Virus record (IMG/VR): IMGVR_UViG_3300008219_000006
Length of the DNA: 20,000 bases
Source: an uncultured virus (IMG/VR IMGVR_UViG_3300008219_000006)
Taxonomy: Duplodnaviria; Heunggongvirae; Uroviricota; Caudoviricetes
Reading direction: 5' to 3' (one strand)
This document shows, piece by piece, positions 3-16,511 of this stretch. The notes under the pieces were generated by a model. That model made no database searches, was not told the DNA's origin, and worked only from the letters and a program-made list of their open reading frames with translations. The first letter of the stretch is position 1. Every line of letters starts with the position of its first letter. Both the position numbers and the translations under genes were made by a program.

Positions 3-3000
3 CGCAGTCTTCTCTATTTGGAGACTGGGGTTAAGACAACAGAACAAATCTTAGATGTAATTATGCCAACACGGTGGGCTTCTTTTGTTGGAACGAAACT
101 TGGTTATGTAGACAATCTAACCTTCTCGGAAAAAATGTCTGATGCTCTACACTTTAGAAAAGCGGCTTTTACAAGAAGGTTAAAGTTAGCTCCGTTTGAT
201 GCGCTTGAAGGATTTATTGAAGGAAGTATTGTTCATATAGCAGATGCTAATGAAAGAGGAGCTAATTGGACTTTAGGTTCTATGATACAAGAGGGTGGTA
301 TAGAAGCGGTTGTTAGTATTGGATTGAATCCGACTATGAGAGCAGCTATGCAGGGAGGCTCTGGTTTACTAGGAGCTGGAGCACAACTAACTAATAAATT
401 TGTTTCAAAAAATAATGATCCTGTTATTACAGATCTTATGAATAGAGCTTCAAGAATTGTATTTAGACCAAGAAGTTTGGAAGAACAAATGGAAGCTGTT
501 GATAAGTACGATAAATTTATTGAGTTTGGTAGTAGATATAAAAATATATTTGGAGAATATTCTCATGCTGAAAGAATTGAAGCTGGAGAGGCCAAGTACT
601 TGTTTCCTACAGATCCAAAGAGAGCTAATAGAGAACGAAACTTTTTAGATTCTTTGTTTGATACGGTACAACTTTTGGCGCAAGCTCAGAATGTAGAAAA
701 CCAAACTTCATGGACCCTTAATAAGATGGACGAAATCTTGTCGATGCTTGAAAAAAAAGTCAAGGATGAGAAGCGACCTAGTATGGGTATTAAGGAAGCA
801 GCTGAATTATCTATAAAATCTTTAATTGGATCTATTGATGCGGTTGTTAAAGCAGATCCAGATTTTGATATTAATCTTGCGAACAACTTAAAAAATATGA
901 TAGCTAGTGAGTATAAAACATTTCTTCTTTTAGATATAGCTAGAAATCATGTAGATCCTATTACTGGCGAAAAGAAAGAACTAACTATAGAAGAAGTAAT
1001 AGAAAAAATTGATCCTACTAAAGATGAGTTCGATGTCAATCTTTGGTTTAAGACTTTTACAGAAGCAGAAAGAGAATTATTAAACGATGAAATGGATCGA
1101 AGGGGACTAAAGCTAGAAGATATTACTGATGATCCAAAGCTAACCCAAGAGATAGTAGAAAAGGTTACTGAAGATTGGATGGGTAGAACAGAAGATACTC
1201 GAAGGTTAGAAGATGACGCTCAAAAAAAGAGAATAGAACACGCTTCGGCTCTTAGTGATTTCCTTGAACAACCTATAACTATTCAAGATATAAGAACTGG
1301 GGAAACTATTGTTGTAGGAGGAGATAGATATACTGGTACTCCTCTAACTATAGATGAAGCTATTAAGAAGAAAAACGATACAGCAGACGAAGTAGAAAGT
1401 GAACCTGAGATAGATGAAGAGGAAGTTGAAATAACTGAATTAACTCCAAGAGAACAAAGGATTATAAGAAATTCACAAGAGAGGTTACAAAAAGGATTAG
1501 AAGCTTATAAAAAAGCAAAGACACCTAAAGAAAAGAAAAGTGCTTTAAAACAAATAGCTAATGCTGTTTGGAAAACTGAAGGAAGACTTAACAAAATAAC
1601 AAAAGAACGAGCTGGAAAAGAAATAATAGATTTGCAAAATGAAAGTCAAGGTATTTTAACTAAAGAAAATATTGAAATAGGACCAGATAAAGCTGGAGAT
1701 CCTATGGATTTTAATAGAGTTGATACTGAAGTATCTGACATAAAAGGTGAAACAGCTGATACAAGTGAAAATTTTGTTATTTTACAAGTTAAACAACCAG
1801 TTATTAGACAAGGAAATGAAAGGTTACAATATGCTAAAGTTGTATTAACACCAGCTGAAAAATTTACACCGGAACCTATAGATGCTCCTCAAACTATCGT
1901 ACCTACTGAACCTCCTGCTGAACCTAAGAAGAAAACAAAGAGTCAAAGAAGAAAGTTACTTGAAAAAGCAAATGATGCAGAAGCCGTAGCTGAAGGATCT
2001 TTTGAAAAGATTAGCGAAGATCGAAAAGAAATGTTGATAGATGTTAATAATATTGATATTGAACTAGCTCAATTAAAAGCCCAACTTGATCAAATGAGCG
2101 ATGAGTTTTATGAGACTGAAGAAGGTAAGAAAATAAAAGAAATAGCCGATAAACAAGCAAAGCTTAACGAAAAACGAAATGAATTACTTCGTGAAATGGG
2201 TTTTGAATCTAGAACTCATAGTGTAGATGGTTCTAGTCTTAAGTCTGTTAAAGAAGCTATTATATCTTTTGCTAAAGAGGATATCGAATCCGAAAAGAAT
2301 CGGCTTAAAGAGATTGAGAAAGATACAAATATTCTTGAAAATACCAAAAGAGTCTTGGCTAAAAAACTTGGAAAAGACGCTACAGATAATGATAAACAAG
2401 AGCTATTAAAACAAAAAAGATCAATCCTTCTCAAGTTCTTGACTAATAAAAGAAACAACGATACTGTTGCTGGAATAGCAAAAGCAGCAGAAATACCTGT
2501 AGAATTTATTAAGGCTTTAAAAAATAACGAGGTTGTATCTCTAGAAGAGTTTGATAGAATTTTATCTAATACCAAAATACAGAGTTATTTGACTGGGATT
2601 ATTAAAGACGTTAAAAAATATGGAACACTAGAAGCTGATGTTGTAAAGAATAATATAGAGAAAGCAAACGAAAGAATAACAAATGCTGGAACATTAGCAT
2701 CTAAATGGATGGAGAATGTTAAGAGTGGAAGAAAGAATTTACATGAATTAGGAAAAGCTCAAAGGGCTGCATCTAAGGTTCATAAATATCAAGAAATGAC
2801 AGAACTAAGAGCAAAGATAGCTAATGTATCGTTAGCAAAAGGAACCTCTGTTGCTAGACTTGCAGATATTCAGCCTGATTTTGATAACTTAGTAGAACTG
2901 GCTTATATAAAGCAAGTTATTTCGGATACAAAAGCAAGTAAGAGAGATCTAAAACAAAGGATGAAGGGTAAGCGTACTATTACCAAAGCAGATCTTAAGA

Positions 3001-6000
3001 TTGTAATGTTAGGAAATTACCATACCCATGAATATATAGATGGATTCTTTGTAACCTCTGAAGATTATTCAGGTCTTGATGAAGATTCCGAAATTGATAT
3101 TGATAAAGCAAGAGATATAATTAGTAGCTTTGGTGAATGGCGAAAGAATACTTTAGGTAAGCATGTTGGTATTCAATTACAAAACGCTACTTTGGCAAAT
3201 AGAAGACCAGAAGCGTTAAATAATTTATCAGATGGGCTGAAAACAGCAGTTAATATTGAAGAGTTTGGTCCTAATGATAAGCCATTAATAAACATAACAC
3301 CAGAACAAGCTAAGACAAATGCAAAATCAAGAAGGGTAGAAGTTAAAGATACTGCTGAAAGTATAGGACAACTAGGTCTTGATCTGTTAAAAGCAACCAA
3401 ATTACTATCTAATCTGAAGAGATTAAATGGTAGGTATAGTAATATCGGTCTTGTTGTAGCTCAACTAAAGCAAGCTGGTTTGGAAAACCTTAATTTTGAT
3501 CATCCTATTTTCCATACAGAACTTAGTCCGGTCATTCTAAAACATGCAGGAGATATAATGTATGATGCTAAGAATGAATTAGATCTTACAGAACTGTATC
3601 CTCTTGATATTACAATTGATGGTATTAAATCTGATGATTACTTGAATGTTATTGTAGATATTAATGAACTAGAGAATATTCTTACTGCTCTAGCTAGTCA
3701 AATAAATAACAAACTTCAGATTATGGTTAACGAGGGAATTAGGGGAGCCGATACACAGATCACTAATATGGATGAAGCTAGTCTTAATTTATATAAGCAA
3801 TATGAACTTGTTACTAGGCTTCATGAAGGACTGTTAGAACACATCTCAACAATGACTAATCCCTTGAGAAGGGGATGGGATAGAGATCTTGATAGTCAAT
3901 TCTTACAGCTTGGTGATACAACTTATGAAACAACTCCTCATGAATATCGTCAAACAGTTGAAAACTATTTTGCGAGAGGTCTTGGAGATATACAAAACAA
4001 AAGACTATGGGATGGATATAGAGATCTTTTTGAACAATATCTAATAACTAGAAAACCAGATCCCAAGAGTATAGACTTAGATATAAAAGAACTATATGAA
4101 CAAATTTTAAGGGATGAAGTAACCTTTGATCATAATAGTCAAATAACTCTTATGTACAAACTTGTTCAAGAAGTTTTAGGTATTGAGGATATAACTCAAC
4201 TAGGAGGACTTTCAGAAGGAAGTCGTTTGGCACTAGATTGGGTTTCGGCAGAAGAAGCTGGATTTGCTTTGGCTGATTTTATTTTCCGAAGAGAAGAAGT
4301 TTCCTTATATAGAAGAGTCGTTAAGAGAAAGAGTTCTTCAAAAACTGGCGAGGGTGAAATAACTAGTGAGCAGCAAATTACTGATAGCGAACAGGGAACA
4401 GAAACTGAATTACAAGCTAAATCAGTTAGAAGTGATATACCTTTGTCTGCTAGAAACCTAGCAAGAAATTGGGAAGAGTCTGTATATAGACATAGGATGA
4501 GAAAAAGTTTAGAGTATTTGACTACAGCAAGCGATGAGGAAGTTGAATTAGTTATTGCTAGTATTCGAGAAAGTGTTCCAAGTAAGGCAGAAGCTTATAA
4601 GAAGTATGCAGATGAAACAGGTAAGGATGTTAAAACTCTAACTGCTGAAGAAAAAACTAAAGCAATTAAAACTTTTTATCTTCCTGAGAAAGAGAAGGTA
4701 GCCAAGATGGCTACAACCTATTCATTCCTACCTCAGATGACAAATAGATCTCCCGGTGAAACAATTACTAACTTTGAACGATGGGAATCTTTTGTGTTTG
4801 AGGTTATGATGGATTGGCCTGTATTGGGAATGAATCTTATACATGATGGTAGATATTATACAGATGGTACTGTTGTTGAGTTTCTAGGAAAAGACGAATC
4901 ACATCAAAGGTATGCAGATGATAATGATCTTGATGTTGAAACTCTTACTGAAGATCAAATTAAAGAAGCCGAAAGAGTTTATCCTCCTGAGATGTTGCAC
5001 ATGAAACCTTCTACTGCTGCTAGAGGAACTAGAGCTCAGCGAAGTGAAGATAAAGTTCGTAAGGCAGCACATGCTGGTATGCCTATCGGTAAACTTACTT
5101 TAGCTGGATTCTTTACACAATGGGCTCATGGAAGACTTAATATTAACTTTGAAGAGTTTGCTAAATCTGCCTTAACTCTTGGCAATGAAACAGTAAAAAG
5201 TTTGGGAATCAATAATCTATTTAATTTTACATCAAGTAAAAACTATGCCGATCTTAATGCTGCTGGTATTCATTCACACTTTAGCGTATTAATGATGACA
5301 CCAAAAAACAGAGAGGCTGCTGAAGCTTTGTTGGATAAACTAGTAAACCAAAGAAACAAAGTTTTAGGAACTACTCCTGAAGATCAGTATCTTGAGGCTA
5401 GTGAGTTTGTATTAGAAACAGCTTTACATACATTAGAAATATCTGGATTGCATACAGATATTTTTCCGGGTATACAATCTTTAGAGAAGATTGCTGCTGA
5501 GTTTGATTTTGAAGGGGTTTTAAAAGATATTAAAGCTGGTAGAAAAAAAACTGCAAGAGTCGAAAAATTCAGAAAACTTATAAAGCACCCTATTATGGTT
5601 AAACTTTATTGGGCTGGACAAGAAGGTATTAAAAGTTCTTTTAGTGATGCAAAGGATGCGGGACTGCTTGAAGGATTTACTGAACAGGACTTAGATTGGT
5701 TTGCTCTCTTCTTAGCTCAAGGTGGTGCAGTTTTGCGACACAATCTACTTAACCATGCTCTTCAAAATAAAGACGGTAAGCCTACTAGCGATGTTCTTGG
5801 AGAATCTATGGGCGTTGATATGGGCGATAGACAAGAGGCTCTCAGGATATTAAAAGACTTAGCCAATCAAGAAACAGATGTTGTTAAAAATTATATGGAC
5901 CTGTATGGCAAACAAATTGAAGGCAGAGATACAAAAGCAAGAACTCTTGAAAAATCCTTAGAAGATTTTGTGAGTGCTAAAGCTTTATATCTTGCACAAG

Positions 6001-9000
6001 GAGATCTTGCTAGAGCAGAAGAACTTAAGCCTAAGATTAGAGCAGAACATAAAAAGAGAATTGAAAACCTACAAGAATATCTAAGAGAGAACGGACTAAA
6101 GGAAGAATCCTTAAATGATCCTGTAGTTATGAATCAACACAGAGGAGAAATTGAAAGAATAATGATGGGTTGGGAGGGAGATGCATGGAAAGAAATGCCA
6201 ATGCTTCGTGCTATTAATGAAAAGAATGCTCAACCTGTTACTCTAGCAATAGATGAAAAAACCAAAGCTGCTGGAAAACCAGCTGGTATTGATATGGATC
6301 ATGTTGGAGAACATTGGTTAATGGGTAGCCTATTAGATAAGTTTACCCTGTTCATAGAATATGGAATTGATACCTCATCGGGTCGATACAATCCTATGGA
6401 TCCAAGTCCTTTGACACCATATAACTCAACTCTTGGATCTTTCCGTAGTGATGAAAAACCATACTCTATCTGGAAAACAGAAAACAATAGATTTGCTAAG
6501 ATGGCTACTGATGAAGAGGGTAATTTAGATCCTAAAAAGATGAGGGCTTATATAAATAGATTGATTGCTATTGACTTATCTATAAGAATGATACAAGACT
6601 ATGATCCTCCAATTCCAAATTTTGAACCATATACAGAAAAAGATTTCTGGGCAGATTGGCAAACAGAGTCAGATCATACAGTAGCTTCTAGAGAAAGAGA
6701 AATCAATTTTTGGGAAGATCCAGAAAACAATGATTATGAAATATCTAAAGAAGAATTCAATAAGAATACATATGGTGGGACAAGAGATCATAGGTCTAGA
6801 CCATTGTTTGCTAGGCGTAATATAGATTATAAGAGTAATCAAGAAATGAGTACTAAAGATCCTGCTGGTATCGCGGCTTTACGTCCTAGAACAGGAAAGC
6901 CCGGAAACCTAATGCATGACAGAGGATCTATGTTTCTTAGGAAAGAATCTTTAAATAGAAAGCTGAGAGAGAAAGAACAAAGATTAGAACATCTTCGTAA
7001 TACAATAAATACTACTGAAATTGATACTAATATTATGTCTGATATTATTAGTGGAGCACATCCTTTCCAATCTGATACATTACCTGTAGGACCAACACCA
7101 GATACTACAACCCTTTCTCATGTCTTTGGAGATACTATAGATGAACAAGTATACAGAGCTATACGAAACATTGAAAATAAGATTCGTCCTTGGGCTATGG
7201 AACGTGGTTACTATAAAGAAGTAAAAGATAATAAATGGGGACGATTGTGGATTATGTGGGAGATGGATCGTCTTCATAAGAATACTATTAGAGAAACAAG
7301 ACAAATCCTAAAAAGTTTTCGTGGAGCTGATGTTTGGGATCAGAACGATATAGAAATAGGAATGCGACAGATAAGACTTTCTTATTACGATAAGCTTTAC
7401 AAACTTCGATCAGTTGTACATGAACTAAGAAGTAAAGGCTTTGATTCTAGAGAAGCTGATATTATGGAAAATCAACTTAGTGCTCATATCAATATGGATG
7501 ATATGACCTATATCGAACTAGCAAGAACTCTAGCAGATAGCGGATTTGCTCAGGATTCAAGAGTCTTTACTCCAGCTCCTCATCATTTAATGGCTATTGA
7601 TCCAGAAACAGCAGCAGATCCTGTAGAATTTACAAGAACTGTTGAAGGTCCCATTGCTATGCATCACTTAGAGCAAGCATTAGCTGAGCATGAAATAGTA
7701 TTTATAAGTTATGTAAACGAAGAATTAAATATATTGTCTAAAGAAGATACTGAATTAGGGAAATATCTAAGGGATAAAAGAGATACTTTTGAAAGCGGTC
7801 GCCATCTTAATTGGAAAGACCTTCAAAATATGATGTGGTCTGAAAACGAAACTGTTAATCAATGGGCAATGGATATTCTAGATAAGGCTGAAAAGAAAGC
7901 TATTAATGCAGAGCATAAGAATTTTTATATCTACTTAGATCCTGACAGTGAAACTAGATCTACGATGACTTATGATAGAAAAGAAGAAGGAAATGTAAAA
8001 AGACTTTGGGGTGGATGGAGTCCGTTGATTTCACAAAAACCTATTGGTAGTGCAAGGTATCATCTGACTCCAGAAGGATTGCAACAACTATTTGTTAATA
8101 TTCGGTCTACCTTATTCAAGAAATTAGAAGATAGACAAATTACTGGCATTAGTACTCTGCACTCTGAACCATCTTTGGCTCAACGATTAGACTCTGGTTA
8201 TCAAGCAGATACTAGAAGATCTCACGAAGCGTTGTTAAAGGCGTTTGAACTTATGGGTGATACTGAAGTCGGAGACTATACTCTTGTTGATAAATCAAGA
8301 AGAAGTTCTTTTGATGATAGAGAACCTCAAAGAGTTCTTGATATAGATAAACTTTCAGGTATGAAGATAGTAACTGGTAATAGATTTGATCATGCTTGGG
8401 ATAGAGCTTACTACTCTCAGTGGGAAGCAACTAAAGAAGCTGCTAGAAGGCAAGGTAAAACAAGGCTACTAGATTATTTAATAAATCAAGAAGAGCTAAA
8501 TCCTGAACTTGTAAAAATACATGCTATATCATTACATGCTGAAAACTTTATGGGACTTGGTACTGAAGAAGCAAGAATATATGCAGCTGCTATAACAAAC
8601 AAAGATGTTGATTGGGTTGATAAAAATACTTTGTTACTAGATAATCTACAACAAGAGATTAACAAGTGGGAATTTTCAGGTCCTTTAGAAAAAGCTATTA
8701 TGGAATTAGAACGGCATCATAGAAATACATCTACAGAAAATACTTTAGATAGAACTAATGTAGATAATTTAAGAAAGGTATTAAAAGTATTTGGTATGGA
8801 AGATTCTGCTATAGATGCTATGCCTGAATTCAAGGATTATAATAAATGGATGAATAACGGTTTATCGGTAGTTATTGATATTGAAACTGATATTGCTGAG
8901 GATGGTGTTCCAACAAAAATATATCGAGTAGTTAAACATTATTCTAGGAAAAATACAAAAGCTGGTTTTATTTCTGAAGTTGTAACAGGAGAAGATTTAA

Positions 9001-12000
9001 ACAGTATTCTCGTAGAAATAGAAAGAGCTCAGCAAGCTGGATATAAGGTTGTTACTTATAACGGCAATACTTTTGACTTTAAGCATCTAGTTAGGTTAGG
9101 AGCAGATCCTAAGATAGCTGCAAGAATTGCTACTAGAAGCATTGATTTGTATAGTCTCTTAAGAAGAATGAAAGCTAATCAAGATAGTCGTAAGGGAAGC
9201 TTAGGACGAATATCTGAACTACTTAATCTTGGTAAGAAAAAAGAAATTGGTGGATATATGGTTCACCTTTTGGAATTAAGGAAAAGTGGAAAGACTTTAG
9301 ATAAAACAGATTTACCTATAGCCTATAGAAATGATGAAATAGCTATTGATGAATTAAATAAAATTAATGATATGGATTCATCTGATCCATCTTTAGAAAC
9401 TCGTATTGTAAACTATACTCTTGAAGACGGTGTATTAACAAATAAACTATTTGCGGAGTTGTTAAAACGTCAAGGAGAAACTAATATTAGTCTTGGAGAA
9501 ATTGGAACTCTTGATTTAGTTACAGAACTGTATCCAAACTGGGCATTAGATATAGATGGAACTAGAGCTGTAACTAATAAAGATGCCTTTAAATGGATAG
9601 ATGATGTAGTTATTCCTAAGCTTATTGGTAAGGAAGAAGATACTTCTGACTTTGGATTGCATAACAAAGGGTTTGTGACTGAAACTGGGAGTAGATTTAG
9701 AGATCGAGCAGAGAGAGAAGCAAAAGAATTCTTTAGAAGAGGAAGGCTTTGGGCTGATAAGAGAGAATTCAATGAACAACGAGATAAACTAAACGGTAAG
9801 AACTACGATGCAATCGAGGTCTTGTCGTATCAAGACTTTATTAATGAGGTTTTAGGAGAATCAGTTACACTAACAGAAAATGATGGAAGACTAATGGCAG
9901 CTAAATATGCTATGGAAGCTATTATGGCTGAGCGTAAACCTACAGAACTTAATCTATTAGATTTAACTAGAGGTATAGATGAAGATGTAGATTTATCCGA
10001 TCTTGGGGATTCTAAAAAATTCGATCTTGTCTTTATACACAATGATGCTGCTCTTAAAATGAATAAAACATTATCTAGAGCAGAGAGAGATGGTACTCTT
10101 AAACCAGAAGTAGTAGTTGGGTTGAGAATAATGTTTGCTCATTTAGCTAGAATGAATCCAGACTTCTTTAGAACAGTCGAGTTTGAGATAGATCCTAGTG
10201 ATATATTCGATACTCAAGGAAGAAGGCAACGGGGTAGATTTGGTATTAAAGATAATAAATTCCATATGATTATAGATCCAAGAGAATCTACCGATGTTCA
10301 GATTGTTGAAATTGCTCTTCATGAAATCATAGGACATATGGGCGTTGAGAAGTTTGTTAGAAAGAATGAAGCTGATTGGGTAAGTATGGTTGAATGGCTA
10401 AGAACTGCTTCTGGTAGAAACGTAGTTGCAGACTTTGTAAAATCAAATCCAAAATATAGTCACTTAACTGAAGCAGAAAAGAATAAGAAAGTTGAATATT
10501 ACCAAACAAATCCTGAAGAATGGGCTGCTCTTTATATTTCTTATCAGCTTATGAAGGATGTTACTCATGATTCTATGATTGATATCAATAATCCTAAAAT
10601 TAATAGATCTCTAAGAGGCATGATTAATAAGATTGTGTCTTCAATAAGAAACCATCTTCAAACAATTACCGATGCTTTGTTTAGGTTTAGAAAGACATAT
10701 CCTCAAGCATATGAGATGATGGAACGAATTACAGAAAATGCTTATGGTTATCAAACAAAAGGTAATATAAGATATAGAAGAGAAGCACAAACTCCAAATC
10801 GAGTAGCAAACGATTATGAATCTACCCATGAAGGATCTGATACAGAAAACATGTATTCTTTTCTTAATCCCTTAGCCGGAGAACAGGGAGATAATGCTCT
10901 TACTCTTCATGCATTTGATAAAAATAGTGGGGTTAAGATGGGAACTCCTTTGAAGAAGGGAGAGCTTTCTGGACTAGCTAAGACAGAAGAAATTGAAACA
11001 TGGGTAAGAGAAGAAGAAAACGCTAGAAGAACTCGTATTGATTTAAGAAATGAATTAAATAATCTTACTATAGGTTCTGCTGAACACATCGCTAAACAAA
11101 TAGAGTTTGATAATGCTGCTAAAAAAGAAGGAGAAATATCTCAAAGAATAAGTGATAATGAATATAATAATCTTTTTGGACAATCAAGAAGAGAAGTAGC
11201 AGATAATAAAGTTGAATTAGCTAGAAGGTTTGGTGACGAACAAGTAGTTGATTATATGTTGGGTGATGAAGCTAATGGGTTTGTTATGAAACAACAACAA
11301 TACAACGCAGGTAAGCTAAGAGAGATAATGACTTCTAGTAAACAAGAAGATATTACATTAGCTAAAACATTCCTAGCTTTGTCTTTTGAAAATATGATTA
11401 AAAAGCGTGGAGACTATGTAAGAGAAAACGCAGAACGATGGTTATCTATGTTTCCTCATATATACATGAGATTAAACAGATTGGCAACAGGTGGTCTTGC
11501 TGGTCTTAATACTACTCAATCAGATCAAACATATTTAAATACCATTATTCCTATTGTTATCTTAAGTAATCTAGTTGTACCCGGACTTGAAAATGTTTCT
11601 GGTAATGTACAAAATACAAAGGGATGGGATAGTTTGGATGATAGGCGAAACGAGTTGTTTGATATAGAAGAAGCAGCTAGAGAGTATGATAAAGAATTTG
11701 TTAAGAATACTGTTGATGGTAAGACTATGACAGAAGTACAATTTGATCAAATAAAAGAACTATCTCTTTCTTTAATCAATGATCCATCTAGTGTCTCTTC
11801 CAGCCATCCTTTTTATGATTTAGCTAGAGAATATTCTAAGACATCTGAACAACTCATACAAAGAGCTACTGATTATCTTGTTAATGCCCGTGTATTACAA
11901 GAAAGACATTTAGAAAAACCAGAGCATAGACTTATGCTATCTTTAAACAAAACAAAAATAGGAGATCTTATATCTAAGAATCCAGATGTTATTACTCAAG

Positions 12001-14765
12001 CTAAGGATGAAATAAGAAGACAAGTTTTAGAAAATCTGTCTTTAACAGATACTTCATCTATTGTAGATCCTGTTTCTCTATATGCTTCTGGTATTCTACC
12101 TGACATAACATCAAGTGAAGTTAATCTTACTTTTATTAGAGGTTGGGATGATATGCCTTTGGTTATCAGAAATAAGATTGATCAAGAAATTAAAAACGAT
12201 CCTTCATTAATGACAATAACTGAATGGGATAGTGACATGCTTATGCTTGATACTAATCCTAGCTCTGAAGCTAAAGCTAGATTAAAGATATATAAAATTC
12301 GGAAACAAAAGGTTGAAGCATTATATAAGAAAGCAGATTACGGTGCTACTACTTTATCAGATATTATAGGATCTGGTACTTCTGCTGGAGAAGCAGCTTC
12401 TATCATATCACAATATAATTCTTCATTAGAAGCACACAATACTTCTTTAGTAGATAAGTTTAGAGCACATTCTGGAAGTTATCTGGCAACTATGATTCTT
12501 AGTGGAAATGGTTTAGCGAGAGATTCTGGTACTCATATGTTATTTACAAGTAAGGAAGCCAATAGTGTTGTTGGATTTAAATCATATCTTCTTATGAATA
12601 GAATTGGTTCTACTGCTTTTATTCCCCATTCAATTGTTGGAATACCTAAGTCTTATGAATTAATGACAAACGATAAAACAAAGATGTTGTTTAATACCGA
12701 TGTAGGTAGTATATCACGGGCTCTTACAAGAGGACCGGGATGGAATGCTGGAACAATTCTAGTAATGAAGGAATTTACTAATTCAAATATAAACTTTTCT
12801 GACTTTCTGGATATGTTTAGAAATGTTATTGATAACTCGCCTGATTTAGATAGTATTAATGTTATAGATCAGTCTGTTCTAAACCTTAGTACAAAAATGA
12901 GAACTGATCTTAAAAGCAAGATATTAGATGATATTGAAACTCTAAGAAGAAAGATGCAGATTACTGGTGGTATTGCACTTAGACAATATAATAGATGGAA
13001 TAGTGCAATTGATACTGCAAATGATTTTACTTCTACTTTGTTAGGACCAAACCTAACAGTAGCTACGCTAACTGTTGAAGGTATGATGAATACTACCTCT
13101 CTTATGTTTGGCGGTCCTCAAGGATTAAAGAACTTTGCAACTGCTGTGATTGATTCTATAGCATTTGCTTCTTCTGGTAGTACTAAAAAAGGACGTAGCC
13201 AAATGCGTCAGCTTGCTAGAGAAATGGGATGGTATGCAAAACATAAGAGACATAGTATGTTTGAAGTACACCGTTCTGTTCTTTATGGCGATGAACTCCA
13301 TGATGATGAAGTAGGTGGGCTTAAAAGATATCTTAGAAGAACTAAAACTTATTCTAATAGTGTAAACGGTGGTATTAATATTGCTCTTAGAAGTCAATCT
13401 ACTATGTCCTATAGAAAATGGTTTGCAGAAATTCTTGGAAATGATAAGCTTAAAGAATTAATTATTAAAGTAAATGATGCTAAAGAAAAAGGTGAGTTTA
13501 AAACTAGAGCAGATATTAAGAGGGTAGTAAAAGAAGTACTAGGTTCTTCTCATGGAAGAACTGAAGCTGTTTATCAAATGGCTAAAGCTGGTCTTTTAGA
13601 TCTTGATATTCTACCTGATATTAAAACTCTTATTGATGAATCTGATGTTGTATATGGTGTACATACTTATGGTGGTAGAATGAGAAACTACATAAGCGAA
13701 AAGACAGATACAGCAGAAAGAACAAGACTTAATGAGGTATTGCGGAAAATGAAGAATTGGGAAAATATCGTAGTACATATGAATATTGTTGATCCTAATG
13801 CTATGGATATTGATACAACGGATGTTCCTTTGTTTAGATGGTTAAGGCATTATAAGTCTTATCCAAATATCTTTGCTGCTCAAAGAGTTTTTAGAGATTC
13901 GTCTAAATATAGTTTACCAGCCTTTGTAGCTCGTATGTTCCGTTTCATGCTTCAGGAAATGATATATGCTATTATCACTATGCTAGCCGCCGGAATGTCA
14001 GCAGCTGTCTTAAAAGAAAGGTTTGAGAAAAACCCAATTAGTGAGATGACTGCACTCTTGCAAAGAAGTCCTATGTTAGGATACTGGGGAGAATTCATTG
14101 CTTCTACAGTAAGAACTATGCTATCAGCAGCCTCTGGAAAACTAGACGCTACTCCTTTGGCTAGAACTTTACTACCTGTAGGTGGTTCTCTTATGAGATC
14201 TCAATCTCAATCTTTGGTCAATGCTATTAGAGGTAATACTGATGGAGGAGACTGGGCAAACTATGCTCGTATGTTAACTCTAGCTCCTGTCCCAGTCCTT
14301 GGACAAATTGCAGGTAATCCATTTACTAGGATAGCTGTAAGTAGAACAATGGGTAAAGAGAAGTCAGCCAATAGTATGAGACAGAAGATGGGGGACAGAC
14401 TTGGGAAACCTAATGGTCGAGACAGCTTAAGAAATGGATTAGGTACGACCGTGGAACCCTCGGACTCAAGTCTATCCTCAAGAAATGTCTTCTTTACACC
14501 TGAGGAAAAGAACCTAAGTAATATCATGAAAGAACTATATCCAGATGCTATGAATTCACCATATGTTACAGATGTTGGTGTTTCTATAGATCCTGATGAT
14601 ATTAAAACTCCAGAAGCATCTCAAGTTATTCCTCAGTTACCTCCAAGAGATACTCCAGAGCCTAAGAGCAGTCGTGTCGATATTGCTAGTAAGAAACCTG
14701 ACCCGATCCAAGCTATTTCAGAGTCTTCAAAACCTATGGAGATACCTCCAGAATTAATTGAATAA
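3..14765 (+). CDS. Giant virion-ejected polyvalent protein, 5'-partial (>4915 aa), with RNAP-like, exonuclease, metallopeptidase and gp16-like regions
   Basis: Uninterrupted frame from base 3 (CGC AGT CTT CTC TAT TTG...) to TAA ending at 14765, so the true start lies upstream of the window. Motifs: YADLNAAGIHSHFSVLM and RKLIKHPIMVKLYWAG (single-subunit RNAP motifs A and B); VIDIET / YNGNTFD / YTLED (Exo I-III); HEIIGH...PEEW (zincin). No Cys seen on reading the translation. Confidence 0.9.
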   Translation, partial: RSLLYLETGVKTTEQILDVIMPTRWASFVGTKLGYVDNLTFSEKMSDALHFRKAAFTRRLKLAPFDALEGFIEGSIVHIADANERGANWTLGSMIQEGGIEAVVSIGLNPTMRAAMQGGSGLLGAGAQLTNKFVSKNNDPVITDLMNRASRIVFRPRSLEEQMEAVDKYDKFIEFGSRYKNIFGEYSHAERIEAGEAKYLFPTDPKRANRERNFLDSLFDTVQLLAQAQNVENQTSWTLNKMDEILSMLEKKVKDEKRPSMGIKEAAELSIKSLIGSIDAVVKADPDFDINLANNLKNMIASEYKTFLLLDIARNHVDPITGEKKELTIEEVIEKIDPTKDEFDVNLWFKTFTEAERELLNDEMDRRGLKLEDITDDPKLTQEIVEKVTEDWMGRTEDTRRLEDDAQKKRIEHASALSDFLEQPITIQDIRTGETIVVGGDRYTGTPLTIDEAIKKKNDTADEVESEPEIDEEEVEITELTPREQRIIRNSQERLQKGLEAYKKAKTPKEKKSALKQIANAVWKTEGRLNKITKERAGKEIIDLQNESQGILTKENIEIGPDKAGDPMDFNRVDTEVSDIKGETADTSENFVILQVKQPVIRQGNERLQYAKVVLTPAEKFTPEPIDAPQTIVPTEPPAEPKKKTKSQRRKLLEKANDAEAVAEGSFEKISEDRKEMLIDVNNIDIELAQLKAQLDQMSDEFYETEEGKKIKEIADKQAKLNEKRNELLREMGFESRTHSVDGSSLKSVKEAIISFAKEDIESEKNRLKEIEKDTNILENTKRVLAKKLGKDATDNDKQELLKQKRSILLKFLTNKRNNDTVAGIAKAAEIPVEFIKALKNNEVVSLEEFDRILSNTKIQSYLTGIIKDVKKYGTLEADVVKNNIEKANERITNAGTLASKWMENVKSGRKNLHELGKAQRAASKVHKYQEMTELRAKIANVSLAKGTSVARLADIQPDFDNLVELAYIKQVISDTKASKRDLKQRMKGKRTITKADLKIVMLGNYHTHEYIDGFFVTSEDYSGLDEDSEIDIDKARDIISSFGEWRKNTLGKHVGIQLQNATLANRRPEALNNLSDGLKTAVNIEEFGPNDKPLINITPEQAKTNAKSRRVEVKDTAESIGQLGLDLLKATKLLSNLKRLNGRYSNIGLVVAQLKQAGLENLNFDHPIFHTELSPVILKHAGDIMYDAKNELDLTELYPLDITIDGIKSDDYLNVIVDINELENILTALASQINNKLQIMVNEGIRGADTQITNMDEASLNLYKQYELVTRLHEGLLEHISTMTNPLRRGWDRDLDSQFLQLGDTTYETTPHEYRQTVENYFARGLGDIQNKRLWDGYRDLFEQYLITRKPDPKSIDLDIKELYEQILRDEVTFDHNSQITLMYKLVQEVLGIEDITQLGGLSEGSRLALDWVSAEEAGFALADFIFRREEVSLYRRVVKRKSSSKTGEGEITSEQQITDSEQGTETELQAKSVRSDIPLSARNLARNWEESVYRHRMRKSLEYLTTASDEEVELVIASIRESVPSKAEAYKKYADETGKDVKTLTAEEKTKAIKTFYLPEKEKVAKMATTYSFLPQMTNRSPGETITNFERWESFVFEVMMDWPVLGMNLIHDGRYYTDGTVVEFLGKDESHQRYADDNDLDVETLTEDQIKEAERVYPPEMLHMKPSTAARGTRAQRSEDKVRKAAHAGMPIGKLTLAGFFTQWAHGRLNINFEEFAKSALTLGNETVKSLGINNLFNFTSSKNYADLNAAGIHSHFSVLMMTPKNREAAEALLDKLVNQRNKVLGTTPEDQYLEASEFVLETALHTLEISGLHTDIFPGIQSLEKIAAEFDFEGVLKDIKAGRKKTARVEKFRKLIKHPIMVKLYWAGQEGIKSSFSDAKDAGLLEGFTEQDLDWFALFLAQGGAVLRHNLLNHALQNKDGKPTSDVLGESMGVDMGDRQEALRILKDLANQETDVVKNYMDLYGKQIEGRDTKARTLEKSLEDFVSAKALYLAQGDLARAEELKPKIRAEHKKRIENLQEYLRENGLKEESLNDPVVMNQHRGEIERIMMGWEGDAWKEMPMLRAINEKNAQPVTLAIDEKTKAAGKPAGIDMDHVGEHWLMGSLLDKFTLFIEYGIDTSSGRYNPMDPSPLTPYNSTLGSFRSDEKPYSIWKTENNRFAKMATDEEGNLDPKKMRAYINRLIAIDLSIRMIQDYDPPIPNFEPYTEKDFWADWQTESDHTVASREREINFWEDPENNDYEISKEEFNKNTYGGTRDHRSRPLFARRNIDYKSNQEMSTKDPAGIAALRPRTGKPGNLMHDRGSMFLRKESLNRKLREKEQRLEHLRNTINTTEIDTNIMSDIISGAHPFQSDTLPVGPTPDTTTLSHVFGDTIDEQVYRAIRNIENKIRPWAMERGYYKEVKDNKWGRLWIMWEMDRLHKNTIRETRQILKSFRGADVWDQNDIEIGMRQIRLSYYDKLYKLRSVVHELRSKGFDSREADIMENQLSAHINMDDMTYIELARTLADSGFAQDSRVFTPAPHHLMAIDPETAADPVEFTRTVEGPIAMHHLEQALAEHEIVFISYVNEELNILSKEDTELGKYLRDKRDTFESGRHLNWKDLQNMMWSENETVNQWAMDILDKAEKKAINAEHKNFYIYLDPDSETRSTMTYDRKEEGNVKRLWGGWSPLISQKPIGSARYHLTPEGLQQLFVNIRSTLFKKLEDRQITGISTLHSEPSLAQRLDSGYQADTRRSHEALLKAFELMGDTEVGDYTLVDKSRRSSFDDREPQRVLDIDKLSGMKIVTGNRFDHAWDRAYYSQWEATKEAARRQGKTRLLDYLINQEELNPELVKIHAISLHAENFMGLGTEEARIYAAAITNKDVDWVDKNTLLLDNLQQEINKWEFSGPLEKAIMELERHHRNTSTENTLDRTNVDNLRKVLKVFGMEDSAIDAMPEFKDYNKWMNNGLSVVIDIETDIAEDGVPTKIYRVVKHYSRKNTKAGFISEVVTGEDLNSILVEIERAQQAGYKVVTYNGNTFDFKHLVRLGADPKIAARIATRSIDLYSLLRRMKANQDSRKGSLGRISELLNLGKKKEIGGYMVHLLELRKSGKTLDKTDLPIAYRNDEIAIDELNKINDMDSSDPSLETRIVNYTLEDGVLTNKLFAELLKRQGETNISLGEIGTLDLVTELYPNWALDIDGTRAVTNKDAFKWIDDVVIPKLIGKEEDTSDFGLHNKGFVTETGSRFRDRAEREAKEFFRRGRLWADKREFNEQRDKLNGKNYDAIEVLSYQDFINEVLGESVTLTENDGRLMAAKYAMEAIMAERKPTELNLLDLTRGIDEDVDLSDLGDSKKFDLVFIHNDAALKMNKTLSRAERDGTLKPEVVVGLRIMFAHLARMNPDFFRTVEFEIDPSDIFDTQGRRQRGRFGIKDNKFHMIIDPRESTDVQIVEIALHEIIGHMGVEKFVRKNEADWVSMVEWLRTASGRNVVADFVKSNPKYSHLTEAEKNKKVEYYQTNPEEWAALYISYQLMKDVTHDSMIDINNPKINRSLRGMINKIVSSIRNHLQTITDALFRFRKTYPQAYEMMERITENAYGYQTKGNIRYRREAQTPNRVANDYESTHEGSDTENMYSFLNPLAGEQGDNALTLHAFDKNSGVKMGTPLKKGELSGLAKTEEIETWVREEENARRTRIDLRNELNNLTIGSAEHIAKQIEFDNAAKKEGEISQRISDNEYNNLFGQSRREVADNKVELARRFGDEQVVDYMLGDEANGFVMKQQQYNAGKLREIMTSSKQEDITLAKTFLALSFENMIKKRGDYVRENAERWLSMFPHIYMRLNRLATGGLAGLNTTQSDQTYLNTIIPIVILSNLVVPGLENVSGNVQNTKGWDSLDDRRNELFDIEEAAREYDKEFVKNTVDGKTMTEVQFDQIKELSLSLINDPSSVSSSHPFYDLAREYSKTSEQLIQRATDYLVNARVLQERHLEKPEHRLMLSLNKTKIGDLISKNPDVITQAKDEIRRQVLENLSLTDTSSIVDPVSLYASGILPDITSSEVNLTFIRGWDDMPLVIRNKIDQEIKNDPSLMTITEWDSDMLMLDTNPSSEAKARLKIYKIRKQKVEALYKKADYGATTLSDIIGSGTSAGEAASIISQYNSSLEAHNTSLVDKFRAHSGSYLATMILSGNGLARDSGTHMLFTSKEANSVVGFKSYLLMNRIGSTAFIPHSIVGIPKSYELMTNDKTKMLFNTDVGSISRALTRGPGWNAGTILVMKEFTNSNINFSDFLDMFRNVIDNSPDLDSINVIDQSVLNLSTKMRTDLKSKILDDIETLRRKMQITGGIALRQYNRWNSAIDTANDFTSTLLGPNLTVATLTVEGMMNTTSLMFGGPQGLKNFATAVIDSIAFASSGSTKKGRSQMRQLAREMGWYAKHKRHSMFEVHRSVLYGDELHDDEVGGLKRYLRRTKTYSNSVNGGINIALRSQSTMSYRKWFAEILGNDKLKELIIKVNDAKEKGEFKTRADIKRVVKEVLGSSHGRTEAVYQMAKAGLLDLDILPDIKTLIDESDVVYGVHTYGGRMRNYISEKTDTAERTRLNEVLRKMKNWENIVVHMNIVDPNAMDIDTTDVPLFRWLRHYKSYPNIFAAQRVFRDSSKYSLPAFVARMFRFMLQEMIYAIITMLAAGMSAAVLKERFEKNPISEMTALLQRSPMLGYWGEFIASTVRTMLSAASGKLDATPLARTLLPVGGSLMRSQSQSLVNAIRGNTDGGDWANYARMLTLAPVPVLGQIAGNPFTRIAVSRTMGKEKSANSMRQKMGDRLGKPNGRDSLRNGLGTTVEPSDSSLSSRNVFFTPEEKNLSNIMKELYPDAMNSPYVTDVGVSIDPDDIKTPEASQVIPQLPPRDTPEPKSSRVDIASKKPDPIQAISESSKPMEIPPELIE
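1545..1856 (+). other. GrpE-like domain within the giant protein
   Basis: Helical segment ending ...QGILTKENIEIGPDKAGDPMD...FVILQVKQPVIRQGNERLQYAKVVLT resembles the GrpE C-terminal pattern (GV..I...G.PFDP...V..V.Q.GY...GR.LR.A.V.V). By-eye match only. Confidence 0.45.
4830..5640 (+). other. T7/N4-type single-subunit RNA polymerase core within the giant protein (DxxGR-like motif, motif A, motif B)
   Basis: In the correct order: IHDGRYY (~4842), D-LNAAGIHSHFSVLM (Asp codon 5250; cf. T7 DGSCSGIQHFSAML), DQY (5382; cf. T7 DIY) and R-x3-K-x3-M-x3-Y-x2-G (5571-5618; cf. T7 RSVTKRSVMTLAYG). Motif C not confidently identified. Confidence 0.7.
8862..9465 (+). other. DEDDy (DnaQ-like, RNase H fold) 3'-5' exonuclease domain within the giant protein
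   Basis: ExoI VVIDIET (D 8877, E 8883), ExoII VTYNGNTFD (9057-9077), the typical SIDLY...SLGRISELLNLGKK segment, and ExoIII NYTLED (9414-9428). Confidence 0.85.
10200..10560 (+). other. Zincin-like metallopeptidase (MPTase-type) domain within the giant protein
   Basis: RGRF...MIID...IALHEIIGHMG (HE at 10320-10325, H at 10335) with a downstream PEEWAA (10512-10529), the pattern of metallopeptidases found in phage polyvalent proteins. Confidence 0.75.
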
Positions 14766-14780
14766 TTGGGTAAAGGAGAG

Positions 14781-14885
14781 GGGGGACCTAGGGACCTAGG
14801 TTTATATTATATATATAATATATAACTAGGGTAAACTAAGGACCTAGGAAATCGACTAGGGGTCACGAATACACAGCTAGGGAGA
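14781..14885. repeat. Cluster of CTAGG/CCTAGG short repeats around a perfect 20-bp AT palindrome; candidate genome end or replication origin
   Basis: TATATTATATATATAATATA (14803-14822) is its own reverse complement and is flanked by CCTAGG/CTAGG. About seven CTAGG/CTAAGG copies occur in ~100 bp, followed by CCCCCCGTACCCCCC and GGGGTACC. Confidence 0.6.
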
Positions 14886-15043
14886 GATTATAAGAGGACT
14901 TTCTTTTCCCCCCGTACCCCCCTTAATTCTTTCGCTATAAAAAGCGATGGGGTACCGAGTGCTAATTGAAACTAGCCTACTGCCCGTGGAAGGGCTTGCA
15001 GGTGGCTGGTGCTCATTATATCCTACCGGATATGGTGGGCATT

Positions 15044-15280
15044 ATGGATAATCCTATTATCCAGACCTTGCGAGGCATGGTCAAGATAGGAGCATCGTTG
15101 TTCCTAATTTGGCTCATGCTTCAAGCAGCTTATGAAAGTATGTCTATGCTTTCACAAGCGGTGGATAGTTATGGTGTGGACTTCGCTTACAACGATCACC
15201 TCCTTTGGGCGGCGATTTCGTTTGGCGCAGCTTCAATCATAATCTCCATCATGTTTGTTCGCTCCCTTTATAGGGACTGA
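15044..15280 (+). CDS. Small hypothetical membrane protein with two hydrophobic segments; start uncertain (15044 or 15077)
   Basis: Hydrophobic stretches IGASLFLIWLMLQAAY and LLWAAISFGAASIIISIMFV. No strong Shine-Dalgarno sequence seen. Confidence 0.55.
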   Translation: MDNPIIQTLRGMVKIGASLFLIWLMLQAAYESMSMLSQAVDSYGVDFAYNDHLLWAAISFGAASIIISIMFVRSLYRD

Positions 15281-16287: not shown

Positions 16288-16511
16288 TACACGTTGTATC
16301 TCGTTCGACCTAAGCATGTCGTTAAAGGGCTTATGCTGATTCTTCCAAGGAAGAGTAGACTCAGGAGACGAGTCCGACTGAGGGCGTGATTCTCAAGGGG
16401 TTTTTAAACCGACAGGTTTTTGATCCTATTGCACTTGTTGTGCATTCCTTTACTCTCTGGGATAAAGAGAGGAACCCTTTACTACTTTCGAGTAGTATAA
16501 AGGAGATAATT

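What the first reader, a model, noticed from the sequence alone, without database searches (positions are those of the whole stretch)
4830..6930. Divergent virion-RNAP-like core with clear motifs A and B but no obvious motif C
Seen: motif A Asp (5250) and motif B R/K/Y (5571-5609) are well preserved, with YWAG in place of YGxG. No HDS/FDG-type motif C is visible at the usual distance; the nearest candidates are IEYGIDT (~6354-6374) and LMHDRG (~6909-6926). Known: the motif C Asp is essential for two-metal catalysis in T7 and N4 RNAPs. Inference: either a large insertion displaces a divergent motif C, or the domain is inactive and repurposed, for example as a DNA-binding or DNA-pulling component.
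Basis: partly seen in the sequence, partly recalled or inferred. Interest (0 to 1): 0.7.

Follow-up and report, generated by a model that had tools for sequence, protein, structure and literature searches.

The report
Divergent RNA polymerase inside giant phage protein
The middle of a 5,306-residue protein of an uncultured marine T7-like phage holds a very divergent single-subunit RNA polymerase core that keeps three of the four classical active-site motifs but has no recognisable motif C, so it is either a new variant of a virus-carried polymerase or a polymerase fold put to another use.

Summary

Profiles of the four known lineages align in register with T7-like RNAPs (hhalign E 8.8e-4, motifs A and B) and with N4-like virion RNAPs (E 1.2e-3, motif B). 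None of 28 column shuffles came near either score. Motif spacing matches N4 closely: 133/107 residues here against 135/107.

No canonical motif C exists. A motif-C matrix ranks every Asp downstream of motif B poorly, and profile alignments of that part are not significant. The best candidate is the Asp of G-I-D-T (nt 6369-6371): invariant in 5 of 5 sequences, at N4-like distance, and followed by a turn-forming stretch. No large insertion is needed.

Both AlphaFold runs failed (pLDDT 42 and 46), so the fold and the second carboxylate remain untested.

The two relatives with near-complete genomes encode two further canonical T7-like RNAPs; one has T7-like gene order with the giant gene last, and one such RNAP follows the giant gene in the window. 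I read the protein as an ejected, early-acting polymerase (confidence about 0.5).

The parts
3..14765 (+). Giant ORF (window part, 4,920 aa; the full protein P0002 has 5,306 aa and starts 386 residues upstream of the window)
   Evidence: The same ORF occurs at 100% identity in another metagenome contig (L004). Homologue P0003 has 5,199 aa (37-39% identity).
4098..7094 (+). Polymerase-like core as delimited by similarity to the most distant full-length relative (P0002 1752-2750 against P0004 1678-2653, 22% identity)
   Evidence: blastp E 6e-33; hhalign to T7-like and N4-like profiles; ESM Atlas nearest clusters are viral PF00940 / N4 vRNAP domains (a lead only).
4836..4853 (+). L-I-H-D-G-R: T/DxxGR-like block. 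G-R is aligned on N4 G423-R424 and on the D-W-R-G-R-F-Y of the phage's own small RNAP. I-H-D is invariant in 3 of 3 lineages; G-R is present in 2 of 3.
   Evidence: posterior digits 5-9 in this block; top hit against the small RNAP pair, E 0.1, not significant.
5250..5291 (+). Motif A: D-LNAA-G-IHSHF-S-V-L. The Asp lies 5 residues before an invariant Gly, as in T7 (D537...G542) and N4 (D559...G564).
   Evidence: MAFFT offsets the window's Asp by 3 columns; an ungapped register puts the Asp of all 3 lineages in one column (read directly from the sequences).
5571..5618 (+). Motif B: R-KLI-K-HPIMVKL-Y-WAG. R, K, Y and the last G are invariant in 3 of 3 lineages.
6300..6323 (+). H-V-G-E-H-W-L-M: putative pre-C palm block (H-x-x-acidic; the acidic residue is kept in 5 of 5 sequences)
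   Evidence: (aligned to N4 I-G-T-G-D-G-M-M and T7 V-H-S-Q-D-G-S-H; low confidence).
6351..6386 (+). F-I-E-Y-G-I-D-T-S-S-G-R: best candidate for a non-canonical motif C. The Asp (nt 6369-6371) and the Arg at +5 are invariant in 5 of 5 sequences. The Glu four residues earlier is not conserved (E, E, T, T, Q).
   Evidence: spacing.
6561..6587 (+). L-I-A-I-D-L-S-I-R: second invariant Asp (5 of 5), an alternative motif C candidate
   Evidence: most conserved peptide of the family; rank 126 of 383.
6909..6926 (+). The Asp is invariant in 4 of 4 sequences that reach it.
   Evidence: weak likeness to T7 N-F-V-H-S-Q-D-G-S-H-L-R-K, E 0.51; rank 40 of 383.
8874..9263 (+). RNase_H_2 / DnaQ-like exonuclease-type domain (V-V-I-D-I-E-T-D) in the same giant protein
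   Evidence: PF13482, E 7.6e-6, 26.4 bits against a cut-off of 22; also in P0003; not found in P0008.
14850..14922 (+). Conserved non-coding element directly after the giant gene's stop codon, conserved at DNA level in all three lineages; possible first promoter, terminator or genome-end element
16386..18305 (+). Stand-alone 639-aa T7-like RNAP with canonical D-W-R-G-R-F-Y and I-H-D-S-F-G
   Evidence: PF00940, E 1.8e-10; phrog_414, E 2.7e-26; orthologue follows the giant gene in the relative G002/L002.

Best explanation
Nt ~4100-7100 encode the catalytic core of a very divergent T7/N4-type single-subunit DNA-dependent RNA polymerase, embedded in the middle of a 5,306-aa protein.

Shown:
- The T/DxxGR-like block, motif A and motif B are present, colinear and spaced almost exactly as in the N4 virion RNAP.
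- They are conserved in the known relatives, except that the G-R of the T/DxxGR-like block is kept in only 2 of 3 lineages.
- Canonical motif C is absent.

Inferred:
- The second metal-binding carboxylate is the invariant Asp of G-I-D-T (nt 6369-6371), at the tip of a divergent hairpin.
- The giant protein is packaged in the capsid and ejected with the DNA, as N4 gp50 and T7 gp16 are.
- Its polymerase core transcribes the first genes of the genome, which start just downstream of the giant gene and include a small stand-alone T7-like RNAP.
- In the two relatives with near-complete genomes, a second, more canonical T7-like RNAP then takes over, giving a cascade of phage-encoded single-subunit polymerases.
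For: Profile evidence:
- hhalign of the 5-sequence family alignment against 11 T7-like RNAPs: E 8.8e-4, 169 columns, query 552-767 on T7 531-705, covering motifs A and B.
- The same alignment against 14 Schitoviridae vRNAP cores: E 1.2e-3, query 604-695 on N4 609-693, motif B.
- 0 of 28 column shuffles reached the real scores; the shuffle maxima were 24.1 and 20.9 against 42.3 and 42.1.

Spacing, from positions verified:
- GR to motif A Asp: 133 here, 135 in N4, 112 in T7.
- Motif A Asp to motif B Arg: 107 here, 107 in N4, 90 in T7.
- Motif B Tyr to candidate motif C Asp: 254 here, 273 in N4, 173 in T7.

Conservation: the motif A Asp and the motif B R, K, Y and G are invariant in 3 of 3 lineages. 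The G-I-D Asp and the Arg at +5 are invariant in 5 of 5 sequences. Overall, 134 of 980 columns (13.7%) are invariant.

Weaker leads:
- P0003 gives a sub-threshold hit to Pfam N4_RNAP_helical (E 0.014, 15.7 bits against a cut-off of 27) over the stretch before motif B.
- The ESM Atlas nearest clusters are viral PF00940 and N4 vRNAP domain families (score 0.91).

Context:
- The relative G002 has T7-like gene order with the giant gene last, after terminase, a 1,488-aa protein and a LysM/transglycosylase protein.
- A small PF00940 RNAP follows the giant gene in the window and in G002.
- The relatives each have two stand-alone PF00940 RNAPs.
- A DNA element conserved across all three lineages sits between the giant gene and the early genes.
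- No plus-strand sigma-70-like site above chance lies there (a weak test).
Against: - No canonical motif C. The G-I-D Asp ranks 241 of 383 Asp residues by a motif C matrix, and the C-terminal profile alignments are not significant.
- The single-sequence searches found nothing: Pfam PF00940 and the N4 vRNAP families, PHROGs, PDB sequences and tblastn against 50,697 phage records give no hit for the window's protein.
- hhalign probabilities are only 20-23%.
- The most distant lineage (P0004/P0008) lacks the G-R of T/DxxGR.
- Both AlphaFold2 models are unusable (mean pLDDT 41.7 and 46.3), so the fold and the closeness of the two Asp residues are untested.
- The parts flanking the core show no similarity to the N4 gp50 N- and C-terminal domains (E 0.05-0.5).
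- Nothing shows directly that the protein is in the virion.
- The relatives have two other complete RNAPs, so a third active one is not obviously needed.
Confidence: 0.5

Rival explanations
1. The fold is a polymerase fold but the module is catalytically dead. It serves as a DNA-binding or DNA-pulling part of the ejection machinery, and host RNAP or the stand-alone phage RNAPs do all transcription.
For: Canonical motif C is absent. Motif B has W or S where T7 and N4 have Gly after the Tyr. One lineage lacks the G-R of T/DxxGR. The relatives carry two complete PF00940 RNAPs.
Against: The motif A Asp and the motif B Arg, Lys and Tyr, which matter mainly for catalysis and NTP binding, are invariant across lineages at 22% identity, where only 13.7% of columns are invariant. 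Several invariant acidic residues lie downstream of motif B. Schitoviridae also tolerate S or N after the motif B Tyr/Phe.
Confidence: 0.2
2. The polymerase is active, but the second catalytic carboxylate is not the G-I-D Asp. It is one of three others: the Asp of L-I-A-I-D (nt 6573-6575), the Asp of H-D-R-G (nt 6918-6920, which would imply a large insertion), or the Asp of the invariant L-I-H-D block upstream of motif A (nt 4845-4847, a permuted C-A-B order).
For: All three Asp residues are invariant (3 of 3 to 5 of 5 sequences). L-I-H-D-[GS] is the only Asp that scores among the top six motif-C-like sites at the same place in all three giant proteins: rank 5 of 383, 5 of 357 and 6 of 208. 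H-D-R-G...L-R-K weakly resembles T7 N-F-V-H-S-Q-D-G-S-H-L-R-K (E 0.51).
Against: L-I-H-D-G-R aligns with good posterior on the N4 T-x-x-G-R block and on the small RNAP's D-W-R-G-R-F-Y, which explains its conservation without a permutation. L-I-A-I-D has no turn-forming residues after the Asp, and H-D-R-G is followed by a helix-like stretch with no hairpin (read from the sequence). None of these alignments is significant.
Confidence: 0.2
3. The motif matches are chance and the region is not a polymerase at all. It would be, for example, a helical spacer of a giant internal virion protein.
For: No family library or PDB sequence search reaches significance. The AlphaFold models are mostly low-confidence helices, and Foldseek finds nothing.
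Against: Two independent profile comparisons hit the right motifs in register, far above the shuffled controls. Four motifs are colinear with N4-like spacing. The language-model neighbours are RNAP families.
Confidence: 0.07

Closest known systems
Virion RNA polymerase of coliphage N4 (gp50; mini-vRNAP = residues 998-2103) and other Schitoviridae
   Same: A single-subunit RNAP core sits in the middle of a giant protein. The T/DxxGR-type block, motif A and motif B are colinear with nearly identical spacing (135/107 in N4, 133/107 here). A large distance separates motif B from the presumed motif C. A small second RNAP gene lies among the first genes of the genome. N4 background comes from passages of PMC4496689; sequences come.
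   Different: No significant sequence match to N4 by phmmer, tblastn or Pfam. The protein is about 1,800 residues longer. The flanking domains are unrelated by hhalign. Motif A reads like T7 (D-x-S-x-x-G-x-H-x-F-x-A-M-L in P0004), not like N4 (E-A-D-G-V-T-N-G). Motif C is not [IV]-[FH]-D-[GA]. The relative's genome is organised like T7, not like N4. An exonuclease-type domain is fused in.
T7-like single-subunit RNA polymerases (Pfam PF00940; T7 gene 1)
   Same: The motif A and motif B residues and their register match: D537/G542 and R627/K631/Y639.
   Different: Not a stand-alone ~800-900-aa enzyme. There is no PF00940 hit and no I-H-D-S motif C. The motif B to C distance is 254 against 173.
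Internal core / ejection proteins of T7-like podoviruses (T7 gp14-gp16); the comparison is recalled, not tested
   Same: The gene sits at the end of the structural module, next to a LysM/transglycosylase-type protein in the relative G002. The protein is very large, and its N-terminal part outside the window has Gly-rich hydrophobic stretches.
   Different: No sequence similarity was found (PHROGs: 0 families). T7 gp16 has no polymerase module.
Tape-measure-fused virion RNAP of Thermus phage P23-45 and crAss-like virion RNAPs (search listing only; otherwise recalled)
   Same: An RNA polymerase is fused into a giant virion protein that enters the cell.
   Different: Those are two-barrel (multisubunit-type) polymerases; this one has the right-hand Pol A-type motifs.

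Membership tests
T7-like single-subunit RNAP superfamily (right-hand, Pol A-type) | Motif A Asp in a D-x4-G...[SA]-[MV]-L context | tested here: met
   The Asp lies 5 residues before the invariant Gly in 3 of 3 lineages, and hhalign aligns it to T7 D537.
T7-like single-subunit RNAP superfamily (right-hand, Pol A-type) | Motif B R-x3-K-x7-Y | tested here: met
   R, K and Y are invariant in 3 of 3 lineages and align to T7 R627/K631/Y639 and N4 R666/K670/Y678.
T7-like single-subunit RNAP superfamily (right-hand, Pol A-type) | T/DxxGR motif | tested here: inconclusive
   H-D-G-R-[YF]-Y is present in the window and in P0003 and is aligned to N4 R-V-G-R and to the small RNAP's W-R-G-R-F-Y. P0004/P0008 has H-D-S-Q instead.
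T7-like single-subunit RNAP superfamily (right-hand, Pol A-type) | Motif C [IV]-[HF]-D-[SGA] downstream of motif B | tested here: not met
   no Asp downstream of motif B scores as motif C (ranks 40, 126 and 241 of 383 for the three invariant candidates). E 0.56 and 0.33.
T7-like single-subunit RNAP superfamily (right-hand, Pol A-type) | Significant match to the family model (Pfam PF00940) | tested here: not met
   no PF00940 hit at E up to 10 for 5 family sequences. Only profile-profile comparison reaches E about 1e-3.
T7-like single-subunit RNAP superfamily (right-hand, Pol A-type) | Right-hand fold with the two catalytic Asp side by side | tested here: inconclusive
   Two AlphaFold2 runs gave mean pLDDT 41.7 and 46.3 and pTM 0.27. 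Foldseek on the second model found no match with E <= 0.001.
Schitoviridae virion RNAP (N4 gp50 type) | Pfam domain set PF21769 + PF21894 + PF21624 + PF21867, as carried by the 120 listed N4 relatives (629 had E <= 1e-5) | tested here: not met
   The only hit is a sub-threshold PF21894 match in P0003 (E 0.014).
Schitoviridae virion RNAP (N4 gp50 type) | Homologous N- and C-terminal domains flanking the core | tested here: not met
   hhalign E 0.054 to 0.49.
Schitoviridae virion RNAP (N4 gp50 type) | Packaged in the virion and ejected; transcribes early genes from hairpin promoters | not testable with these tools
   Only context is available: gene position in the relative and a conserved element after the gene with a predicted nested hairpin.

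The most novel reading that the evidence does not exclude
An uncultured lineage of marine T7-like podoviruses runs its whole programme on three phage-encoded single-subunit RNA polymerases. The first is built into a ~5,300-aa ejected protein and has a rebuilt active site. Its classical motif C hairpin is replaced either by a G-[IV]-D turn or by the invariant I-H-D that sits upstream of motif A. The second case would be a permuted C-A-B palm, so far known only from some RNA-virus replicases (recalled).
Probability: 0.2. Interest if true: 0.85.

Novelty: new variant of a known kind. Interest (0 to 1): 0.66.

Why it matters
Virion-carried single-subunit RNAPs are known from N4-like phages only. 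Here a polymerase core of the same type sits in a protein half as long again, and the two relatives with near-complete genomes also encode two ordinary T7-like RNAPs; one of them (G002) is shown to be organised like T7. If the core is active, three things follow:
- Delivering a polymerase with the DNA arose, or was kept, outside Schitoviridae.
- The two-metal site of the Pol A-type palm tolerates loss of the canonical motif C signature.
- A phage may need no host RNAP at any stage.

The family also lies beyond the reach of Pfam, PHROGs and the AlphaFold2 runs done here, so it marks a blind spot in phage annotation. If the core is inactive, it is a clear case of a polymerase fold reused in DNA ejection.

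Tried and rejected
**Sequence searches of the window's core or whole ORF**
- Pfam, PHROGs, PDB sequences (phmmer and profile) and tblastn against 50,697 phage records gave no polymerase hit.

**Homologue hunts**
- Word-index search of residues 1500-2350: 2 proteins, the protein itself and P0003.
- HMMER profile against 1.84 billion representatives: 3 proteins (P0004, P0005, P0006).
- 'Longer' search with the alignment: none of 3,020 candidates.
- Viral contigs: none with the single protein, 2 loci with the alignment.
- Metagenome contigs: 3 loci, all identical to the window or to P0003.
- The family stays at 3 full lineages plus 1 fragment, too shallow for AlphaFold2.

**Structure**
- Two AlphaFold2 models had pLDDT 41.7 and 46.3.
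- Foldseek against the PDB on the second model gave 0 matches with E <= 0.001, and the top rows were unrelated helical proteins. I draw nothing from it.

**Motif C tests**
- hhalign of the family's C-terminal 760 residues against T7 residues 740-883 and N4 residues 880-1010 gave E 0.56 and 0.33.
- A motif C matrix scan found no convincing site.
- An alignment of T7 H-D-S-F-G-T onto N-R-S-P-G-E-T (nt ~4743) has E 0.24 and no Asp there, so I rejected it.
- The Asp of N-P-M-D-P (domain 944) is not conserved, so I rejected it.

**Other checks**
- The N- and C-terminal parts against the N4 gp50 NTD and CTD were not significant.
- I suspected an HExxH metalloprotease motif near nt ~10,200. The window has H-E-I-I-G-H (HExxxH) and only P0008 has H-E-L-A-H, so I did not pursue it.
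- The sigma-70 scan of nt 14600-16500 found 3 sites against 2.7 expected, which is uninformative.
- Rfam found nothing in nt 14700-20000.
- CCTAGG and CTAGGG counts over the whole window are not above chance, although every copy lies after nt 14787.
- Earlier findings of this scan: nothing by place or by sequence.
- The window's own assembly is not held. The nearest record, G001, is a 24-kb fragment without this gene.

Full report
**What is there**

The window is dominated by one open frame, nt 3-14765 on the plus strand, which runs off the 5' end. The protein collection holds it as a 5,306-aa protein, P0002, on a 67,988-bp contig. Window residue n is P0002 residue n+386. An identical copy lies on another metagenome contig (L004).

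- The Asp of N-Y-A-D-L-N-A-A-G at nt 5250.
- R, K and Y of F-R-K-L-I-K-H-P-I-M-V-K-L-Y-W-A-G at nt 5571-5609.
- I-E-Y-G-I-D-T at nt 6354-6374.
- L-M-H-D-R-G at nt 6909-6926.

**Relatives**

The family is tiny.
- A word-index search of residues 1500-2350 found 2 proteins: the protein itself and P0003 (5,199 aa, 37-39% identity).
- A HMMER profile search of 1.84 billion cluster representatives found 3: P0004 (a 2,696-aa N-terminal fragment), P0005 and P0006, both fragments.
- P0004 and the 3,257-aa open frame at the start of viral contig L003 (P0008) are two ends of one gene on a 66.7-kb contig.
- Scans of viral and metagenome contigs only re-found the window's phage and P0003's phage, the latter on one IMG/VR record and two ocean scaffolds, all identical.
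- The core of the window's protein is 22% identical to that of P0004.

**Is it a polymerase?**

Single-sequence methods say nothing. The window's protein has no Pfam PF00940 or N4 vRNAP domain hit, no PHROG, no PDB sequence match and no tblastn hit in 50,697 phage records. One weak signal is a sub-threshold match of P0003 to Pfam N4_RNAP_helical (E 0.014), just before motif B.

For profile-profile tests I built two outside alignments from records fetched here:
- 14 Schitoviridae vRNAP cores, from N4 down to 21% identity.
- 11 T7-like RNAPs, including the two small RNAPs of this phage group.

hhalign of the 5-sequence family alignment gave the following:
- Against the T7-like set: E 8.8e-4, 169 columns, query 552-767 on T7 531-705. 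The motif A Asp column aligns with D537, and R, K and Y with R627, K631 and Y639.
- Against the N4-like set: E 1.2e-3, query 604-695 on N4 609-693. R, K and Y align with R666, K670 and Y678.
- Probabilities are low (20-23%).
- 28 column-shuffled versions of the family alignment reached at most 24.1 and 20.9, against real scores of 42.3 and 42.1.

With the alignment forced end to end against N4, the block L-I-H-D-G-R-Y-Y (nt 4836 onward) falls on N4 M-T-R-V-G-R-M-Q, the TxxGR motif, with posterior digits 5-9. The same block is the top, though non-significant, hit against the phage's own small RNAP motif D-W-R-G-R-F-Y.

The spacing is striking. In numbering of the protein translated from nt 3570, with T7 and N4 positions checked:

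| Interval | Here | N4 | T7 |
|---|---|---|---|
| GR to motif A Asp | 133 | 135 | 112 |
| Motif A Asp to motif B Arg | 107 | 107 | 90 |

The ESM Atlas neighbours are viral PF00940 and N4 vRNAP domain clusters (score 0.91, recognition value low). That is a lead, not a test. I conclude that a T7/N4-type polymerase core is present, at about 0.85-0.9.

One caveat concerns motif A. MAFFT puts a 3-column gap there, so the window's Asp is offset from the Asp of P0003 and P0004. Read without the gap, all three have Asp five residues before the invariant Gly, as in T7 (D537...G542) and N4 (D559...G564). In addition, P0004 reads F-D-K-S-F-N-G-K-H-H-F-H-A-M-L against T7 F-D-G-S-C-S-G-I-Q-H-F-S-A-M-L.

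**Motif C**

- A position matrix from the 25 outside motif C windows ([IV]-H-D-[SC] and [IV]-[FH]-D-[GA]) gives no Asp in the three giant proteins more than 3.8 bits.
- Profile alignments of the 760 residues from just before the A-W-K-E-M-P block onward against T7 740-883 and N4 880-1010 are not significant (E 0.56 and 0.33).

I therefore ranked candidates by conservation and geometry. Acidic residues kept in every available sequence downstream of motif B are positions 753, 914, 934, 1002, 1035 and 1117 (1117 in the 4 sequences that reach it); position 895 is Asp in 4 of 5.

Asp934, in G-I-D-T at nt 6369-6371, is the best candidate:
- It is Asp in 5 of 5 sequences, with an invariant Arg at +5.
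- It follows a hydrophobic stretch.
- It is followed in every lineage by a turn-forming segment (T-S-S-G, T-A-A-G, L-A-G-N, P-S-G-E).
- It lies 254 residues after the motif B Tyr (N4: 273).
- It lies 20 residues after an H-x-x-acidic block. The N4 and T7 alignments both place that block on the conserved pre-C block, at low confidence.

The Glu four residues earlier, which the forced N4 alignment puts on D951, is not conserved (E, E, T, T, Q).

The other candidates are weaker:
- Asp1002 (L-I-A-I-D-L-S) is invariant but has no turn after it.
- Asp1117 (H-D-R-G) is invariant in 4 of 4, but it would need a motif B to C distance of 437, and a conserved helix-like segment follows it.

One oddity remains. 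The only Asp that scores among the top six motif-C-like sites at the same place in all three proteins is the I-H-D of the T/DxxGR-like block upstream of motif A, with ranks 5 of 383, 5 of 357 and 6 of 208. Its alignment to TxxGR explains it more simply, but a permuted arrangement cannot be excluded.

Structure prediction could not settle this. Two AlphaFold2 runs (1,141 aa with 4 rows, 626 aa with 5 rows) gave mean pLDDT 41.7 and 46.3. Foldseek on the second model returned nothing meaningful.

**Active or dead?**

Across the three lineages, 134 of 980 gap-free columns (13.7%) are invariant. Yet the motif A Asp and Gly, the motif B Arg, Lys, Tyr and Gly, and Asp934 with Arg939 are all kept. That pattern is what selection on catalysis would give.

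Three points weigh against activity:
- The G-R is missing in the P0004 lineage.
- The residue after the motif B Tyr is W or S. Schitoviridae also show S and N there.
- The relatives have other RNAPs.

**Context**

Right after the giant gene the window has small ORFs and then a 639-aa PF00940 RNAP with canonical D-W-R-G-R-F-Y and I-H-D-S-F-G (nt 16386-18305). Its orthologue follows the giant gene in the relative G002, which holds P0003. G002 (64 kb, CheckV completeness estimate 95%) and G003 (66.7 kb, 99%) each have two stand-alone PF00940 RNAPs, one of them a strong match (E 7e-82 and 1e-84).

G002 is transcribed in one direction and has T7-like gene order: small RNAP, small ORFs, 814-aa T7-like RNAP, gp2.5-like SSB, RusA-type resolvase, primase-helicase, family A DNA polymerase, dNMP kinase, exonuclease, ribonucleotide reductase, portal-type adaptor, scaffold, major head protein, two very large tail-tube-type proteins, large terminase, a 1,488-aa protein, a LysM/transglycosylase-type protein, and finally the giant gene.

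The giant gene therefore sits where T7 has its internal core proteins (recalled). Its product is a reasonable candidate for a packaged, ejected protein. That step is inference.

Between the giant gene's stop and the first early ORF lies a DNA element conserved in all three lineages, although their proteins are only 22-39% identical. In the window it reads G-G-A-A-A-T-C-G-A-C-T-A-G-G-G-G-T-C-A-C-G-A-A-T-A-C-A-C-A-G-C-T-A-G-G-G, then about 25 nt, then C6-G-T-A-C6, at nt 14850-14922. It can form a nested hairpin with some double changes among only three sequences. It could be the first promoter, a terminator or an end element; I did not resolve which.

**Comparison and novelty**

In function the closest known system is the N4 virion RNAP, with a central single-subunit RNAP in a giant ejected protein and a small second RNAP made early (passages of PMC4496689). 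Membership in the Schitoviridae vRNAP family fails on three counts: the Pfam domain set, the flanking domains and the genome type. Membership in PF00940 fails by the model score and by motif C. I file it as a new variant of a known kind.

Three full-text searches listed nothing describing such a protein in a T7-like phage. I saw only listings and abstract openings, so this is weak evidence that it is not in print.

**Verdict**

- A polymerase-type core is very likely.
- Canonical motif C is truly absent.
- The most likely second carboxylate is the invariant Asp at nt 6369-6371, with no large insertion.
- Activity, fold and virion location are untested.

Noticed in passing
window 14784-14922; L002 20860-21000; L003 9790-9885 and 10247-10325: An AT-rich palindrome flanked by CTAGG repeats is followed by a ~70-nt element that is conserved at DNA level in all three phage lineages. 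The element has two G-runs and two C-runs that can pair as a nested hairpin. It sits directly after the giant gene's stop and before the early genes. It is a possible first promoter, terminator or genome-end element, and it has no Rfam match.
   Followed up: partly
G002 (L031 364-2808, L029) and G003 (L030, L032): The two relatives with near-complete genomes each encode two stand-alone PF00940 single-subunit RNAPs in addition to the giant protein's core. That makes three polymerase genes of this type per ~65-kb genome. The window shows only the small one.
   Followed up: partly
window 8874-9263: An RNase_H_2 (PF13482, DnaQ-like V-V-I-D-I-E-T-D) domain lies inside the same giant protein, about 600 residues after the polymerase core. 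It is present in P0003 but was not detected in the third lineage. An exonuclease-type module in a presumed ejected polymerase protein is unexplained.
   Followed up: no
window 14000-16000: G+C content rises from 0.32-0.36 across the giant gene to 0.45-0.50 in the genes after nt 14766.
   Followed up: no
window 4836-4850: L-I-H-D-[GS], invariant in three lineages at the T/DxxGR position, looks like a canonical motif C signature but lies upstream of motif A.
   Followed up: partly
window 18906-18952: A 12-13-nt direct repeat (CAACCTTCGGTT, about 3-4 copies) lies inside the ORF at nt 18840-19229.
   Followed up: no
L034 8346-12812, L037, L035 4610-8716 (relative G002): The tail-tube-type genes are unusually large (2,042 and 1,368 aa), and a 1,488-aa protein with no PHROG match precedes the LysM protein and the giant gene. 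Much of the extra genome length over T7 is in virion proteins.
   Followed up: no
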